This document shows positions 1,506 through 5,942 of a stretch of DNA of 64,000 bases, piece after piece (position 1 is the first letter of the stretch; every line of letters starts with the position of its first letter). Made by a program: the position numbers and the translations under genes. Under the pieces are notes generated by a model. That model was not told where the DNA came from and searched no databases. It was given only the letters and a program-made list of their open reading frames with translations. Origin of the DNA: Candidatus Aminicenantes bacterium UBA6072 (lineage in GTDB: Bacteria > Acidobacteriota > Aminicenantia > UBA2199); NCBI GenBank assembly GCA_002436105.1, contig DIXU01000001.1, positions 265,500 to 329,499 on the forward strand, in the 5' to 3' direction.

Positions 1506-1604
1506 CTGCGAACCGAAGATCTCCCCGATCGATCACGCCCTGGGCAAGAATCGTTAGGGGGTAGTTTATGGCAATCTCAGGGATTTGTCAAACGGATATC
1601 GCTG

Positions 1605-2125
1605 GGGCGAGGGGATGCCACGAAGCCGAAGGTTCCATGTTCCACGTTCCATGTTCCACGTTCCATGTTCCACGTTCCACGTTCCATGTTCCACGTTCCA
1701 TGTTCCATGTTCCACGTTCCATGTTCCACGTTCCATGTTCCACGTTCCATGTTCCACGTTCCACGTTCCATGTTTGCAACAGATGTAGTTATTAATTGGG
1801 AATTTGGTGCTTGGTATTTGGCATTTAAGTCCTAATATTGGCTTTTTTGACCGTAAACCGTTTACTGTCTACCGTCAACCGATTGGAATTACGAGCAATG
1901 GTATTTGTCGTTATGCGTTATCCTTGATGAGAAAGAACCAGAGATGATCTTCTCTCTGACTATCACTACCACTATCACTACCACTCAGGGCTGTTAGCTC
2001 TCCTGCTAACACGATCACTAACACTACCATTCGGCTTGTTTTTCGTTCTTGCTGACACTGACACTGTCACTGACACTGGATTCCGTTCTGGTCTCCGGCT
2101 ACCACTATCACTACCACTGATCCTG
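1605..2125. repeat. Composite intergenic repeat element, copy A (heptamer array + GGTGCTTGG module + ACCGTAAACCG module + GATGAGAAAGAAC module + TNNCAC hexamer arrays)
   Basis: Large blocks are near-identical to 3972-4400 (same orientation) and to 5548-5885 (reverse complement). Examples are GGGGATGCCRCGAAGCCGAAGG, GGAATTTGGTGCTTGG, GACCGTAAACCG, GCAATGGTATT and GATGAGAAAGAAC. Copies A and B additionally share CTATCACTACCACT, TTCTTGCTGACACTGACACTGTCACTGACACTGG and a GTTAGC-N6-GCTAAC hairpin. Copy A lies between the divergent rSAM and ABC genes and ends in the ABC promoter region. Confidence 0.8.
1632..1771. repeat. (GTTCCAY)n heptanucleotide tandem array, about 20 units, the VNTR-like module of copy A
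   Basis: Direct reading shows alternating GTTCCAC/GTTCCAT units. Homologous arrays of about 7 units (4015-4066) and about 5 units (5810-5845, inverted) occur in copies B and C. On the minus strand the 21-nt period encodes (M/V)E(H/R)GTWN in all three frames. Confidence 0.85.
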
Positions 2126-2134
2126 ATAATGCAC

Positions 2135-2140
2135 TATAAT
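2135..2140 (+). promoter_or_regulatory. Candidate -10 box (gcacTATAATg) for the ABC exporter gene
   Basis: TATAAT hexamer 9-60 nt upstream of the candidate starts. The same gcTATAAT pattern recurs upstream of many genes in the window (5905-5910, 9672-9677, 32162-32167, 36605-36610, 50448-50453). Confidence 0.4.
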
Positions 2141-2148
2141 GACCTCCA

Positions 2149-3963
2149 ATGACATCCTGGTTCTCATACCTGAAAGGCGCCTGGGCGCGCAAGATGCCCG
2201 CGGACAAGATCAATCCGTCAGCGCGGGACAAGAAAAAAACCCGCGACGCCCTGAAGAACCTGCTCCCTATTGTAAAGCGCCACTGGAAAAAGGGGGCGTT
2301 GGGCGCGGCGCTGATCCTGCTGACCTCGCTGCTGGCTTTCCCCGGCCCGATGATCACCCGCTTTTTGATCGACAAGGTGATACTCGGCAAGCAACTCAGG
2401 CTGCTGCTGGGCGTGATCCTGCTGCTGGCAACGATCAAGGTCGCCGGCATCCTCTTCGGCATCCTGCAGCAGTTTTATTTCGCCCGCTTCGAGCAGGAGG
2501 TGCTGCTGGAGATCCAGCAGACCCTGTTCGACCGCACCCTGCGCCTGCCCAAGGCATTCTTCGACGACAAGGAGACCGGCTACCTGATGTCGCGGCTGCT
2601 GGGCGACGTCAACGGCGTGCGCTGGTTCTTCTCCTCGACCATCGTCCACATCTTCACCCAGTCGATCCGCTTCGCGGGCGGCGCCGTTTTCCTGGTCTAC
2701 CTCAACTGGCGCCTGGCGCTGGCCGTGCTGGTGGTGCTGCCGCTGATGTTCGCGGCCGTCCGCTTTTTCGGCCGCAGGATGCGCGTGCTGAGCCACCACG
2801 GCATGGAGCGCCACGCCGAGGTCTACCAGTCGGTGCAGGAGTCGCTCTCCCAGACCTCGCTGATCAAGGCCTTCGCCACCGAGAAAAGGACGCTGAACTC
2901 GCTGACCGGCAAGCTGCGCGCCTCGCTGCAGCTGGGCATGGAGCAGAACGTCTTCGGCTCGCTGGCCAACCTGGCCATCGGCTTCGGCCCCGACCTGGCC
3001 CACCTGATCGTGCTGGCCGGCGGCGCCGTCCTGATCATCCGCGGCGAGTGGAGCCTGGGCTCGCTGCTGGCCTTCCAGTCCTACGTCGGCTTTGTCTACG
3101 GCCCGGCCCAGTTCCTGGCCACGGCCAACTTCCAGCTGCAGGGGGCCATGGCCTCGCTGGAGCGGGTTTCGGCCTTGTTCGACGTCGTCCCCGAGGAAAA
3201 CGAGGAGACGGGTGAAAAGGTCGGGCGCCTGCGCGGCGAGATCGATTTCCGCCAGGTCGGCTTCTCCTACAACGGCAAGGAAACGGTGCTGGACGACGTT
3301 TCGTTCTCGGTCCGGGCCGGCGAGCACGTCGCCATCATCGGCCCCAGCGGCGTGGGCAAGACCACGCTGGTCAGCCTGCTGCTCCAGTTCTACCGGCCTC
3401 AGCGGGGGCAGATCCTGGTCGACGGCCGGCCGGCGGTCGAGTACGAGCTGCGCTCGCTGCGCCGGCGCATCGGCTACGTCCCCCAGTCGCCGACCCTGCT
3501 GAAAGGGACGATCGCCGACAACCTGCGCTACGGCGACCCGGAGACGGCGGCAGCGGGACTGGAAAGGGCGGCGCGCGCCGCCGGCATCCACGACTTCATC
3601 GCCTCCCTGCCCGACGGTTACCATTCGCTGGTAGGCGAGCGCGGGGTCAATTTCTCCGAAGGGCAGAAGCAGCGCCTGGCCATCGCCCGCGCCCTGGTCA
3701 AGGACCCCGACATCGTGATCCTCGACGAGCCGACCTCGGCCCTGGACTCGCGGACCGAGGCCTCGATCTTCGCCACCCTGCCCGAGATGGTGAAAGGCAA
3801 GACGCTGTTCATCGTCGCCCACCGCCTGAGCACCATCCGCCAGAGCGACCGCATCCTCTGCTTCAACGAAAAGGGATTGGTCGGCGACGGCCGGCACGAA
3901 GAACTCAAGGAAAATTGCCCGTATTACCAGGAGCTGCTCAGGAGCCAGGAAGTCAAGAACTGA
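2149..3963 (+). CDS. ABC transporter, fused permease/ATP-binding exporter (ABCB-type, RiPP/peptide-exporter-like)
   Basis: 604 aa with an N-terminal 6-TM region. Walker A is GPSGVGKTT, the ABC signature is LSEGQKQRLAIARAL and Walker B is IVILDEPTSALD. The true start may be the internal Met at about 2194 (MPADKIN...). Confidence 0.9.
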   Translation: MTSWFSYLKGAWARKMPADKINPSARDKKKTRDALKNLLPIVKRHWKKGALGAALILLTSLLAFPGPMITRFLIDKVILGKQLRLLLGVILLLATIKVAGILFGILQQFYFARFEQEVLLEIQQTLFDRTLRLPKAFFDDKETGYLMSRLLGDVNGVRWFFSSTIVHIFTQSIRFAGGAVFLVYLNWRLALAVLVVLPLMFAAVRFFGRRMRVLSHHGMERHAEVYQSVQESLSQTSLIKAFATEKRTLNSLTGKLRASLQLGMEQNVFGSLANLAIGFGPDLAHLIVLAGGAVLIIRGEWSLGSLLAFQSYVGFVYGPAQFLATANFQLQGAMASLERVSALFDVVPEENEETGEKVGRLRGEIDFRQVGFSYNGKETVLDDVSFSVRAGEHVAIIGPSGVGKTTLVSLLLQFYRPQRGQILVDGRPAVEYELRSLRRRIGYVPQSPTLLKGTIADNLRYGDPETAAAGLERAARAAGIHDFIASLPDGYHSLVGERGVNFSEGQKQRLAIARALVKDPDIVILDEPTSALDSRTEASIFATLPEMVKGKTLFIVAHRLSTIRQSDRILCFNEKGLVGDGRHEELKENCPYYQELLRSQEVKN

Positions 3964-4886: not shown

Positions 4887-4919
4887 TCCGATTCCTGTCG
4901 GAACACTCTTTTTACGAAA

Positions 4920-5543
4920 GTGAGGCGCCTGTTTGATCTGGTTCTGAGATTGGCCATCGTCTTTTTTTCCCTGTGGCTTCACGACAGGGTGCGCGTGTGG
5001 ATGGCCGGCCGCTGCGGCGACCGCGAAGCCGCCTCCCGGCAGCGGTCGCCGGAAAACCCCTTTGCCCGCGTCGACTGGATCGGCAGCGTGCTGCTCCCCG
5101 CATTTCTTGTTTTCCGCGGCCAGCCGGTGCTGGGCTGGGCCAGGCCCCTCGAGTTGGACGCCGACAAATTGCCCCGCCCCCGGCGGGATGCCCTGCGGAT
5201 CGCCATGGCCGGCCCGTCGGCGAACCTGCTGCTGGCGCTGGCCGGCATCGGTATTTTCCGCGGCCTGGACTCCGCCGGGCTGCTGACCTCGCCAATCCTG
5301 ATACAGATCCTGCCGTTTTTCTGCCTGACCAATGCCTGCCTCGCCGTCTTCAACCTGCTGCCCATCCCGCCGCTGGCCGCCAGCGGCGCCGCCGAGCAGT
5401 TCCTGGGCGGCGACGCCCTTTCTTCCTTTGAAGACATCAAGCCCTTCGGCTTTCTCCTGCTGCTGGCCGGGGTCTATTTCAATTTCTTCGATTTTCTCAC
5501 CATACCGCTGAGCCGGCTGGTCAACACGATGCTGGGATTCTGA
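4920..5543 (+). CDS. Peptidase M50 (site-2 protease) family homolog with substituted catalytic motifs (putative pseudo-protease)
   Basis: 207-aa polytopic membrane protein with a GTG start. Where M50 enzymes carry HExxH it has LHDRVRV. Where they carry NxxPxxxLDG it has NLLPIPPLAASG. The Glu, second His and Asp ligands all appear replaced. Confidence 0.55.
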   Translation: MRRLFDLVLRLAIVFFSLWLHDRVRVWMAGRCGDREAASRQRSPENPFARVDWIGSVLLPAFLVFRGQPVLGWARPLELDADKLPRPRRDALRIAMAGPSANLLLALAGIGIFRGLDSAGLLTSPILIQILPFFCLTNACLAVFNLLPIPPLAASGAAEQFLGGDALSSFEDIKPFGFLLLLAGVYFNFFDFLTIPLSRLVNTMLGF

Positions 5544-5547
5544 AGGA

Positions 5548-5885
5548 ACATTGTCAATAACAGTGCCGTTAATTGAAATCGGTTTACGGTAGACGGTAAA
5601 CGGTTTACGGTAAGAGAAGAACCAGCCATCTCTTGTTCTTTCTCATCAGGCATAACGCGTCACGCATCACGAATAATACCATTGCTTGTAATTGCAATCG
5701 GTTTACGGTTGACGGTAAACGGTTTTCGGTAAAAATAAGGTAATATCAGGACTTAAATCCCAAAACCCAAGCACCAAATTCCAAATAATCAAGTACATCC
5801 GTTGCCAACGTGGAACATGGAACGTGGAACGTGGAACATGGAACCTTCGGCTTCGCGGCATCCCCTCGCCTCTTCCTTCTATTGA
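5548..5885. repeat. Composite intergenic repeat element, copy C (inverted orientation, lacks the hexamer arrays, ACCGTAAACCG module duplicated)
   Basis: Reverse complement matches copies A/B through the GGGGATGCCGCGAAGCCGAAGG, heptamer, GGTGCTTGG, ACCGTAAACCG and GATGAGAAAGAAC modules. It sits between the M50-like gene and the S46 peptidase promoter. Confidence 0.8.
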
Positions 5886-5942
5886 AATCCCTGCTCCGGC
5901 AAGCTATAATCACGATATCCCTTTCCCATCAAGGAGCCATCC

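What the first reader, a model, noticed from the sequence alone, without database searches (positions are those of the whole stretch)
1560..5900. Novel modular composite repeat family: three long copies (one inverted) within 4.3 kb bracketing an rSAM/ABC/pseudo-protease segment
Three intergenic elements (1605-2125, 3972-4400, 5548-5885 inverted) share a fixed order of sequence modules. These are GGGGATGCCRCGAAGCCGAAGG, then a (GTTCCAY)n heptamer array, then ACATCNGTTGCMAAC, then GGAATTTGGTGCTTGGNATTTGG, then ACCGTAAACCG triplets, then GCAATGGTATT...GATGCGT(A/G)A...GATGAGAAAGAAC, and (copies A and B only) CTATCACTACCACT and TGACAC hexamer arrays plus a GTTAGC/GCTAAC hairpin. Modules vary in copy number between copies (20, 7 and 5 heptamers; the ACCG module is duplicated in C), so the element evolves by slippage and module shuffling. 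No transposase, integrase, CRISPR spacer or tRNA-like structure is associated. Copies A+B (direct) and C (inverted) bracket the ABC exporter, a lipoprotein and a degenerate M50 protease, like the ends of a cassette. I do not recognise this element as any described repeat class (REP/BIME, ERIC, MITE, CRISPR, retron msr-msd). A multi-module micro-satellite element of this length is unusual for bacteria.
Basis: seen in the sequence. Interest (0 to 1): 0.85.

Follow-up and report, generated by a model that had tools for sequence, protein, structure and literature searches.

The report
Heptamer-array mosaic repeats flanking an inversion
Three (in fact four) AT-rich intergenic elements built from short 7-base tandem arrays are real; their conserved core matches the end-repeats of a small selfish gene cassette found in many bacterial phyla, and two inverted copies bracket a gene pair whose orientation differs between related species.

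Summary
A (1605-2125,+), B (3972-4400,+) and C (5548-5885,-) share ordered modules that shuffled sequence never reproduces. A fourth, partial copy D lies at 9546-9665.

Nearly every module is a short tandem array of 7-nt (some 6-nt) units. Each copy has a two-armed core: (GTTCCAY)n, a spacer, then a degenerate (TTGGNNN)n arm containing ATTTGGTGCTTGG.

That arm is not specific to this lineage. It occurs in at least 119 stretches of genomes from many phyla. There it forms the end-repeats of a small cassette carrying a PF05635 gene (four-helix-bundle, 23S-rRNA intervening-sequence protein, Avd-like). All 10 PF05635 genes sampled independently from plasmids are also flanked by 7-8-nt arrays.

The window copies carry no such gene. 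Related Aminicenantes show the same module order at an unrelated locus, and fast module turnover at the orthologous sites.

The two genes between the inverted copies B and C (4401-5618) lie in the opposite orientation in three related lineages. One junction falls inside the shared ACCGTNA arrays.

Heptamer arrays themselves are a known class (LSSR, STRR). The mosaic, the cross-phylum core and the PF05635 link were not found in Rfam or in the searched literature. Function, for example RNase III stems, is inferred and not shown.

The parts
1605..2125 (+). Copy A, whole mosaic element between the divergent rSAM and ABC genes
   Evidence: nhmmer with B as query: E 5.6e-68
1611..1631 (+). A head module GGGGATGCCACGAAGCCGAAG
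1632..1774 (+). A left arm (C-arm): (GTTCCAY) x20.4, reverse complement of RTGGAAC
   Evidence: one search shows (GTTCCAY)n paired with (TTGGAAC)n in L200
1796..1826 (+). A right arm (G-arm): TTGGGAATTTGGTGCTTGGTATTTGGCATTT, the outer about 35 nt of the cross-phylum TTGGNNN arm
1850..1881 (+). A ACCGTNA heptamer array
   Evidence: D17
1895..1946 (+). A GCAATGGTATT, (TTATGCG)n and GATGAGAAAGAACCAGAGATG modules
1959..2118 (+). A tail: ACTAYC hexamer array (1959-1985), GTTAGC/GCTAAC hairpin (1991-2010), CTGACA hexamer array (2052-2078), CTACCA array (2099-2118)
   Evidence: D3, D7
3972..4400 (+). Copy B, whole mosaic element between the ABC stop codon and the lipoprotein-gene promoter. Head 3984-4005; (GTTCCAY) x7.4 at 4006-4057; G-arm 4078-4108; ACCGTNA 4132-4148; (TGATGCG)n 4179-4204; GATGAGAAAGAAC 4201-4213; tail arrays 4234-4370
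5548..5885 (-). Copy C, inverted. Head 5845-5865; (GTTCCAY) x5.4 at 5807-5844; G-arm 5755-5785; ACCGTNA arrays 5699-5733 and 5581-5613; GAAAGAAC module 5627-5647. It lacks the hexamer tail
   Evidence: (I1-I8, D18)
9546..9665 (+). Copy D, partial and not in the finding. Full-length G-arm at 9546-9614, followed by CTTTTNC heptamers at 9639-9663. It lies between a tRNA gene and the M14 peptidase gene
   Evidence: (D6, I9)
4401..5618 (.). Segment (lipoprotein gene 4470-4886 and M50-like gene 4920-5543) that has the opposite orientation in L246/L247, L279 and L280
1563..1591 (-). Promoter-like site TTGACA-17-TAAACT of the rSAM gene, abutting the head of A
5882..5910 (+). Promoter-like site TTGAAA-17-TATAAT of the S46 peptidase gene, abutting the head of C

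Best explanation
A, B, C and D are gene-less members of a family of AT-rich intergenic mosaics made of short tandem arrays of 7-nt (some 6-nt) units.

Anatomy. Each element has a core of two inverted heptamer arms: (GTTCCAY)n, a spacer, then (TTGGNNN)n containing ATTTGGTGCTTGG. Lineage-specific arrays follow in a preferred order: ACCGTNA, TGATGCG, ACTAYC, CTGACA, CTTTTNC.

Origin. The TTGGNNN arm is the terminal inverted repeat of a small selfish cassette. That cassette carries a PF05635 gene (four-helix-bundle, S23p, 23S-rRNA intervening-sequence protein, Avd-like) and has spread across phyla. The window copies are derivatives without the gene, comparable to MITEs derived from an IS.

Shown: the elements change by array expansion and contraction and by exchange of modules between copies. 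In this clade, the segment between the inverted copies B and C has both orientations.

Inferred:
- Inverted copies are recombination substrates, and this produced the inversion(s).
- When B and C (or the two arms of one core) lie in one transcript, they pair into a long imperfect duplex. Such a duplex resembles the stem of a 23S-rRNA intervening sequence and could be cut by RNase III, which would uncouple or destabilise flanking mRNAs.
For: Structure and significance in the window.

The family in other Aminicenantes:
- The same module order occurs at an unrelated locus (L099 5815-6041, E 1.3e-28), and modules appear mirrored on the other side of cores.
- Orthologous sites carry different module sets.

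Cross-phylum core:
About 17 would be expected by chance on my own estimate.
- Flanks are also conserved.
- Polarity is fixed: an inverted partner lies upstream in 39 of 136 matches and downstream in 0.

Link to PF05635:
- Genes confirmed by Pfam at E 1.7e-15 and 3e-37.
- They occur in 8 of 119 core loci and 5 of 120 GTTCCAY loci, always flanked by heptamer arrays.
- In loci chosen by protein only, the ORF sits between a CCAAAT-type arm and a TTTTGGTCATT...ATTTGGTGCTTG arm (L275/L277, L264-273).
- Window D aligns with the L275 arm over about 70 nt.
- 10 of 10 PF05635 genes taken from plasmids have flanking 7-8-nt arrays. In three 37-40 kb control regions the best-scoring such arrays are those next to the gene.
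- The Coxiella IVS has tandem heptamers before its S23p ORF and an RNase III-cut terminal stem (PMC4990558).
- Homologues at 70% amino-acid identity or more occur in Patescibacteria, Desulfobacterales and anammox Planctomycetota.

Inversion. The left junction lies inside the ACCGTNA arrays of B and C.

Duplex potential of B with C: -224 kcal/mol gain against -11 with a shuffled partner.
Against: - No PF05635 gene lies in the 64-kb window, in the 8 kb upstream, or in the roughly 150 kb of Aminicenantes DNA examined. The link is therefore by arm homology only.
- A, B and C keep only the outer about 35 nt of the arm.
- Arms within a locus are only slightly more alike than arms from different genomes (0.69 against 0.62). 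Mismatches between B and C show no G.U strand bias. Nothing therefore shows selection for RNA pairing.
- Whole elements do not fold better than shuffles (z from -0.6 to +1.6).
- The right junction of the L246 inversion is not the reciprocal product. About 100 nt of unique sequence replaces the expected repeats.
- How the cassette or its derivatives move is unknown. No target-site duplications were established.
Confidence: 0.55

Rival explanations
1. The elements are neutral simple-sequence DNA. AT-rich intergenic DNA in this lineage is prone to polymerase slippage with a 7-nt register, arrays arise in place, and gene conversion homogenises them. On this view the resemblance to PF05635 cassette arms is convergence or shared mutational bias.
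For: Heptamers are the commonest long SSR class in many bacteria, and slippage was proposed as the cause (Mrazek 2007, as summarised in PMC4679880). Array numbers differ freely between copies. Elements are replaced by unrelated repeats at orthologous sites. No PF05635 gene lies nearby.
Against: Slippage does not explain a 35-70-nt non-periodic-in-detail consensus (TTTTGGTCATTNG...ATTTATTTGNNATTTGGTGCTTGGNATTTGGNATTT) shared with cassette arms in other phyla. It does not explain the fixed arm polarity of 39 to 0. It does not explain the same order of six or more modules at unrelated loci in different genomes.
Confidence: 0.2
2. The arrays are cis-regulatory DNA. Each array would be a row of binding sites for a DNA-binding protein, such as a nucleoid-associated protein or a cooperative repressor (as with the heptad arrays bound by the omega repressor of pSM19035; that comparison is from memory). 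The elements would then tune the adjacent promoters.
For: The heads of A and C abut promoter-like sites, and D and the tail of B lie just upstream of promoters. TTGG recurs every 7 bp while the three other positions vary. The consensus is conserved more than arm pairing.
Against: Cores occur in every kind of intergenic region, including between convergent genes and inside operons. Orthologous promoters in relatives work without them or with other repeats. No candidate binding protein is linked.
Confidence: 0.12
3. The elements are non-autonomous transposable elements (MITE or REPIN type) moved in trans by a transposase encoded elsewhere. On this view the PF05635 gene is a passenger.
For: There is an inverted-repeat core and dispersed copies, with gene-less and gene-carrying versions. 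The window state (an inverted segment flanked by two inverted copies) is also what intramolecular replicative transposition produces.
Against: No transposase family recurs within 8 kb of 119 cores. Copies are 80-94% alike rather than near-identical. No target-site duplication was seen by eye at two-armed cores. The arms are degenerate arrays rather than defined termini.
Confidence: 0.1
4. The elements encode small peptides. For example MIFSLTITTTITTTQGC (1944-1997) and MLFSLTITTTKSC in B would be precursors for the neighbouring radical-SAM/ABC peptide-maturation cluster.
For: The context is a RiPP-type cluster. There is an in-frame 12-nt difference between A and B.
Against: C lacks the ORF. 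The relative L099 has no start codon and a different frame. Array lengths differ by non-multiples of 3. The cluster has a conventional precursor candidate upstream (L001 about 3700-3890).
Confidence: 0.02

Closest known systems
Intergenic heptanucleotide tandem repeats: long SSRs of Mrazek et al. 2007, STRR of Calothrix/Nostoc, TAACTGA repeats of Beggiatoaceae/Cyanobacteria/Bacteroidetes (PMC4679880), GGGNATC repeats of Xanthomonas/Nostoc (PMC4692102)
   Same: Head-to-tail 7-nt units in intergenic regions, often just upstream of start codons. Unit number is variable, the phylogenetic distribution is patchy, and the function is unknown.
   Different: Here several different arrays are joined in a preferred order around an inverted-repeat core, and the whole composite recurs at several loci and in several genomes. 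None of the cited papers describes the TTGGNNN core, the mosaic, or a link to PF05635 genes.
23S rRNA intervening sequences carrying an S23p ORF (Coxiella burnetii, PMC4990558; Leptospira, Ralph and McClelland 1993, as cited in PMC4990558)
   Same: Terminal inverted repeats flank a PF05635 ORF. Tandem heptamers of variable number lie at the 5' end, the stem is cut by RNase III, and the element is regarded as selfish. An Azospirillum 23S IVS seen here has inverted heptamer arrays (L253).
   Different: The window elements have no ORF and are not in rRNA genes. They are far more composite. Cleavage is untested.
BIMEs (bacterial interspersed mosaic elements) and REPINs of enterobacteria and pseudomonads (from memory)
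   Same: Intergenic mosaics of a few motif types in variable combinations and orientations, often as inverted pairs.
   Different: The unit motifs here are tandem 6-7-nt arrays, not 20-40-nt palindromes. No RAYT-type transposase was found near 119 cores.
MITEs
   Same: Short, AT-rich, non-coding, with inverted-repeat ends. Gene-less versions coexist with a gene-carrying version.
   Different: The gene carried is not a transposase. No target-site duplication was shown. Copies are diverged and internally unstable.

Membership tests
Heptanucleotide long simple-sequence repeats (LSSR / STRR type) | Head-to-tail tandem copies of a 7-nt unit | tested here: met
   TRF: period 7 at 1632-1774 (20.4 copies), 4006-4057, 5807-5844, 4179-4204, 5586-5613, 5699-5730 and 9639-9663. 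Lag-7 autocorrelation is 0.36-0.44.
Heptanucleotide long simple-sequence repeats (LSSR / STRR type) | Intergenic location, with unit number varying between copies or strains | tested here: met
   All four copies are intergenic. There are 20, 7 and 5 units in A, B and C and 4 in the orthologous element of L246.
PF05635 (S23p / 23S-rRNA IVS protein) cassette | Contains a PF05635 ORF | tested here: not met
   hmmsearch with a PF05635-type profile on all ORFs of 50 aa or more found none in the window, L001 or the Aminicenantes loci.
PF05635 (S23p / 23S-rRNA IVS protein) cassette | Ends are inverted arrays of short (7-8 nt) repeats | tested here: met
   Core arms are (GTTCCAY)n and (TTGGNNN)n within each copy, and B and C are inverted over about 250 nt. 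Cassettes show the same layout.
PF05635 (S23p / 23S-rRNA IVS protein) cassette | Arm sequence homologous to arms of gene-carrying cassettes | tested here: met
   Alignment A2: D aligns over about 70 nt with the 3' arm of the Desulfobacterales cassette L275. A, B and C align over the outer about 35 nt.
PF05635 (S23p / 23S-rRNA IVS protein) cassette | Terminal stem processed by RNase III | not testable with these tools
   Only duplex potential could be computed: B with C gives a -224 kcal/mol gain. Cleavage is documented for the Coxiella IVS (PMC4990558).
MITE | Terminal inverted repeats plus target-site duplication | tested here: inconclusive
   Inverted arms are present. No duplication was seen by eye at two-armed cores such as L013 and L084. 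Ends of degenerate arrays cannot be placed exactly, and no systematic test was run.
MITE | Derived from, and mobilised by, a transposase-encoding parent | tested here: not met
   No transposase family recurs in the 119 loci of up to 8 kb that hold cores. The only recurrent small gene is PF05635.
REP / BIME / REPIN | Unit is a 20-40-nt imperfect palindrome associated with a RAYT (Y1 transposase) | tested here: not met
   Units are tandem 6-7-nt arrays. No RAYT-like cluster was found. Whole genomes could not be scanned.
Invertible promoter or segment with a site-specific invertase | Short inverted repeats plus an adjacent recombinase gene | tested here: not met
   No recombinase appears among the Pfam hits of genes within 10 kb. 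The repeats are about 250 nt. The two orientations are fixed differences between lineages with about 82% DNA identity.
Any Rfam RNA family | Match to a curated covariance model | tested here: not met
   Only tRNAs appear at gathering threshold in the window and in 23 related loci. Nothing relevant appears at E<5 in 1500-6000.

The most novel reading that the evidence does not exclude
Intergenic heptamer arrays in bacteria, including the cyanobacterial STRRs that have gone unexplained since 1990 and the heptamer excess among long SSRs, may be largely the footprints of one widespread and so far unrecognised class of selfish element. That element would be a PF05635 four-helix-bundle (Avd-like) gene framed by inverted heptamer arrays. 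It would spread between phyla, decay into gene-less hairpins and mosaics such as those in this window, provide RNase III-type processing sites, and drive inversions. The Avd-like protein would act on the arrays, either by binding them or by helping a polymerase or reverse transcriptase to copy them reiteratively.
Probability: 0.3. Interest if true: 0.85.

Novelty: new variant of a known kind. Interest (0 to 1): 0.68.

Why it matters
Two old loose ends become testable together. The first is why 7-nt tandem arrays are so common between bacterial genes. The second is what the very large PF05635 family does outside diversity-generating retroelements; here 7,992 and 7,999 of the 8,000 candidates scored passed E 1e-5 and 1e-10 for the two query types.

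If the arrays are the ends and relics of PF05635 cassettes, they define a new kind of small mobile or selfish element with a cross-phylum host range. There are practical consequences:
- The elements break short-read assemblies.
- They mark sites of inversion and rapid intergenic turnover.
- They could act as RNA-processing sites that reshape operon expression in uncultivated lineages such as Aminicenantes.

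Tried and rejected
- Rfam found nothing but tRNAs, at gathering threshold on the window and 23 loci and at E-value threshold on 1500-6000.
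- Global RNA folding of A and B on both strands is no better than shuffles, so a single large structured RNA is rejected.
- Small-ORF or RiPP-precursor reading is rejected. The ORF is absent from C, is not conserved in L099, and array lengths differ by non-multiples of 3.
- A recurrent transposase, RAYT or integrase near cores was not found.
- Assembly artefact is rejected.
- Phage origin is unlikely: only 2 core hits in 2.9 million viral contigs.
- Text searches for the core sequence returned only primers. Searches for STRR, heptanucleotide, PF05635 and IVS terms found no paper on the mosaic or on the gene-array link, apart from the Coxiella heptamers.
- Ideas considered from memory and dropped without a test, because the elements occur in phyla lacking the factor or the spacing does not fit: a CsrA sponge (GGA motifs), half-parS similarity of GTTCCAC, ECF -35 GGAAC, a sigma-54 promoter, attC sites, and two-tetrad G-quadruplexes.
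- G.U strand bias between B and C was tested as evidence for RNA-level selection. None was found.

Full report
**1. The observation**

- TRF finds period-7 arrays of GTTCCAY with 20.4, 7.4 and 5.4 units at 1632-1774, 4006-4057 and 5807-5844. It also finds further period-7 and period-6 arrays inside each copy.
- The repeat finder links A and B by direct families. It links both to C by inverted pairs of 51-112 nt at 80-94% complementarity.
- A four-way alignment shows the shared module order.
- Two module patterns that match 4 and 3 times have an expectation of 0.00 in dinucleotide-preserving shuffles.
- Lag-7 autocorrelation singles out these regions among all low-GC stretches of the window.
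- A fourth, partial copy (D, 9546-9665) lies between a tRNA gene and the M14 peptidase gene.

**2. Source and assembly**

The window is part of a 459-498 kb contig from a methanogenic enrichment metagenome (JGI record TOLCLC_10000223).
- Two assemblies agree with the window without a mismatch across the repeats.
- Short-read Logan contigs of the ABC gene end inside the repeats.
- Homologues of the ABC protein that carry a source name are from Aminicenantes and Acidobacteriota.
- The 8 kb upstream holds a radical-SAM/PqqD peptide-maturation cluster with its own precursor candidate and no further copies.

**3. Anatomy**

Almost every module is a short tandem array:
- GTTCCAY
- GGNNTTT, that is TTGGNNN
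- ACCGTNA
- TGATGCG
- CTTTTNC
- the hexamers ACTAYC and CTGACA

GTTCCAY is the reverse complement of RTGGAAC. A metagenome contig shows (GTTCCAY)n, a loop, then (TTGGAAC)n as a hairpin (L200). Each window copy therefore has a two-armed core: a left C-rich arm (GTTCCAY)n, a spacer (GTTKGCAACNGATGTAG...), and a right G-rich arm (TTGGRAATTTGGTGCTTRG...TTTGG). The other arrays follow on the right, and a 21-nt head lies on the left.

The heads of A and C abut promoter-like sites of the rSAM and S46 genes. No terminator-like site lies in B.

**4. Not an RNA family and not a peptide**

- Rfam has nothing.
- Whole elements fold no better than shuffles.
- The small ORFs are not conserved.

**5. The core is cross-phylum**

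My own rough estimate of chance matches is about 17.

The genomes include:
- Aminicenantes and Acidobacteriota
- Desulfobacterota
- Bacteroidota, including the isolates Pricia antarctica, Salinimicrobium and Chitinophaga japonensis
- Planctomycetota
- Patescibacteria, Elusimicrobia and WOR-3
- two archaeal MAGs

. The flanks are conserved too, giving a G-arm of about 65 nt: GTTTTGGTCATTGNNNATTGGNNNTTGNGATTTATTTGNNATTTGGTGCTTGGNATTTGGNATTT.

Where an inverted partner exists it is always upstream (39 against 0). Other heptamer arrays of unrelated sequence often adjoin the core.

These span all GC contents, often with inverted arrays around a centre. Viral contigs hold only 2 core matches.

**6. 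The family in Aminicenantes**

- Relatives show a C-arm, a centre and a G-arm, flanked outward by the same module types as in the window. The modules are mirrored on the two sides.
- L099 (UBA2199) has the window's right-hand module order at an unrelated locus.
- At the orthologous loci of five related lineages, the three intergenic sites hold different module sets, a different GC-rich hairpin repeat, or almost nothing.

The elements therefore turn over much faster than the genes.

**7. The inversion**

In L246 and L247 (two assemblies; ABC protein 91% identical) the lipoprotein and M50-like genes lie on the opposite strand.
- blastn maps L246 8953-10178 to window 5618-4401 in reverse. The sequence on either side maps forward, apart from a 100-nt unique stretch before the right-hand forward match.
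- The left junction lies in the ACCGTNA arrays that B (4132-4148) and C (5581-5613) share in inverted orientation.
- The right junction is not the reciprocal product: those 100 unique bases replace the expected repeats.
- L279 and L280 (ABC 78-79%) have the L246 orientation with hardly any mosaic. L248 and L249 have the window orientation with B-like and C-like elements.
- On a neighbour-joining tree of the ABC protein, this needs at least one and probably two inversions. Branching among the closest three is weak.

In the window state, the flipped segment is flanked by two inverted copies. The tails of B and C face the genes, and their heads face outward. Homologous recombination between inverted copies gives this layout, and so does intramolecular replicative transposition. 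No recombinase gene is nearby.

**8. The link to PF05635**

I looked for genes that recur near cores.
- No transposase recurs. Small PF05635 genes do.
- In every case the ORF is framed by arrays of short repeats, usually inverted on the two sides. The arrays are of the CCAAAT/ATTTGG type, of the GTTCCAC/GTGGAAC type, or of a type of their own.

Because those loci had been chosen for arrays, I sampled independently.
- tblastn against plasmids found 36 records, mostly Nostoc, Calothrix and Anabaena-type cyanobacteria. STRR heptamers were first described in Calothrix (PMC4692102).
- All 10 flanks inspected have arrays of 7-8 nt. One of them is a 23S-rRNA IVS in Azospirillum.
- In three control regions of 37-40 kb, the best-scoring arrays of that period are the ones beside the gene.

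Homologues of the L053-type protein at 70% identity or more occur in Patescibacteria, Desulfobacterales and anammox Planctomycetota. Their loci, fetched by protein identity alone, show a CCAAAT arm, then ATG...ORF...stop, then the canonical G-arm. Window D aligns with that arm over about 70 nt, and A, B and C over the outer 35 nt.

The literature supports part of this. The Coxiella IVS has 2-3 tandem heptamers before its S23p ORF, and terminal inverted repeats cut by RNase III. It is regarded as a selfish element (PMC4990558). PF05635 proteins resemble Avd of diversity-generating retroelements (PMC10053308).

**9. What is shown and what is inferred**

Shown:
- the anatomy
- the family
- its cross-phylum core
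- the physical association of heptamer arrays with PF05635 genes
- the fast turnover
- the two orientations of segment 4401-5618

Inferred:
- The gene-less elements descend from cassettes.
- Inverted copies caused the inversion.
- The transcribed arms act as RNase III substrates.

Against RNA-level selection:
- Arms of one locus are only a little more alike than arms of different genomes (0.69 against 0.62, p = 5e-5).
- B/C mismatches show no G.U bias.

The consensus seems to be conserved rather than the pairing. That would fit recognition by a protein or recent common descent.

**10. Comparison and novelty**

Heptamer arrays between genes are known (PMC4679880, PMC4692102 and the work they cite).

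I did not find the following in Rfam or in six literature searches:
- the ordered mosaic
- the TTGGNNN inverted-repeat core shared across phyla
- the general association of such arrays with PF05635 genes
- their role at an inversion

I file the finding as a new variant of a known kind: heptamer SSR elements and IVS-like elements. I do not file it as a member of the IVS/S23p family, because the defining ORF is absent.

**Limits**

- Both collection scans were truncated.
- Whole genomes could not be searched.
- The samples of PF05635 loci are small.
- No expression data were available.

Noticed in passing
window 9546-9665: Fourth, partial copy of the element (D). It has a full-length TTGGNNN arm plus CTTTTNC heptamers and lies between a tRNA gene (9364-9448, minus strand) and the M14 peptidase gene. 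It was not in the finding.
   Followed up: yes
L248 6850-6960; L249 6720-6960; L279 3610-3990; L280 3790-3920; also L046, L079, L023, L074: A second cross-phylum intergenic repeat: a GC-rich hairpin CCCTCTC(T/C)-N3-6-GAGAGGG followed by GGGGTGAG. It occupies the A-position in relatives (tandem units of about 120 nt in L279) and lies next to TTGG cores in Phycisphaerales, Bacteroidales, Syntrophaceae and Chrysiogenales.
   Followed up: no
L001 1-9357 (upstream of the window) and window 63-1505: Large peptide-maturation cluster with several radical-SAM/SPASM, PqqD, ScmC and methyltransferase genes. A candidate precursor ORF lies on the minus strand at L001 about 3700-3890 (MKKRKWKTPKLEIISRV...CAACSARGQS).
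   Followed up: partly
window 62142-62549: Tandem repeats of 51 and 102 nt, 4-6 copies at 63-71% identity, apparently inside a coding region (a repeat protein).
   Followed up: no
window 36671-36748: A 36-nt unit repeated 2.2 times (GCGATCCCCCAAGGGGACGCCGCAGCACAACTGACA). Not examined.
   Followed up: no
L252 (Pseudanabaena galeata plasmid pPg_01, 46268-46627): A PF05635 gene framed by long (AAAAGCT)n and (AAAAGCC)n arrays sits between cas6 and cas4 of a CRISPR-Cas locus.
   Followed up: no
protein search results: Most PF05635 homologues in metagenome assemblies lie on very short contigs (longest contig often 500-3000 nt). This is expected if their flanking arrays break short-read assemblies. 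Some identical proteins occur on 41-60 contigs.
   Followed up: partly
L278 6055-7284: In one relative (ABC protein 85% identical) a Transposase_mut (IS256-type) gene follows the ABC gene in place of the lipoprotein and M50-like pair. This is another sign that the junction is rearrangement-prone.
   Followed up: no
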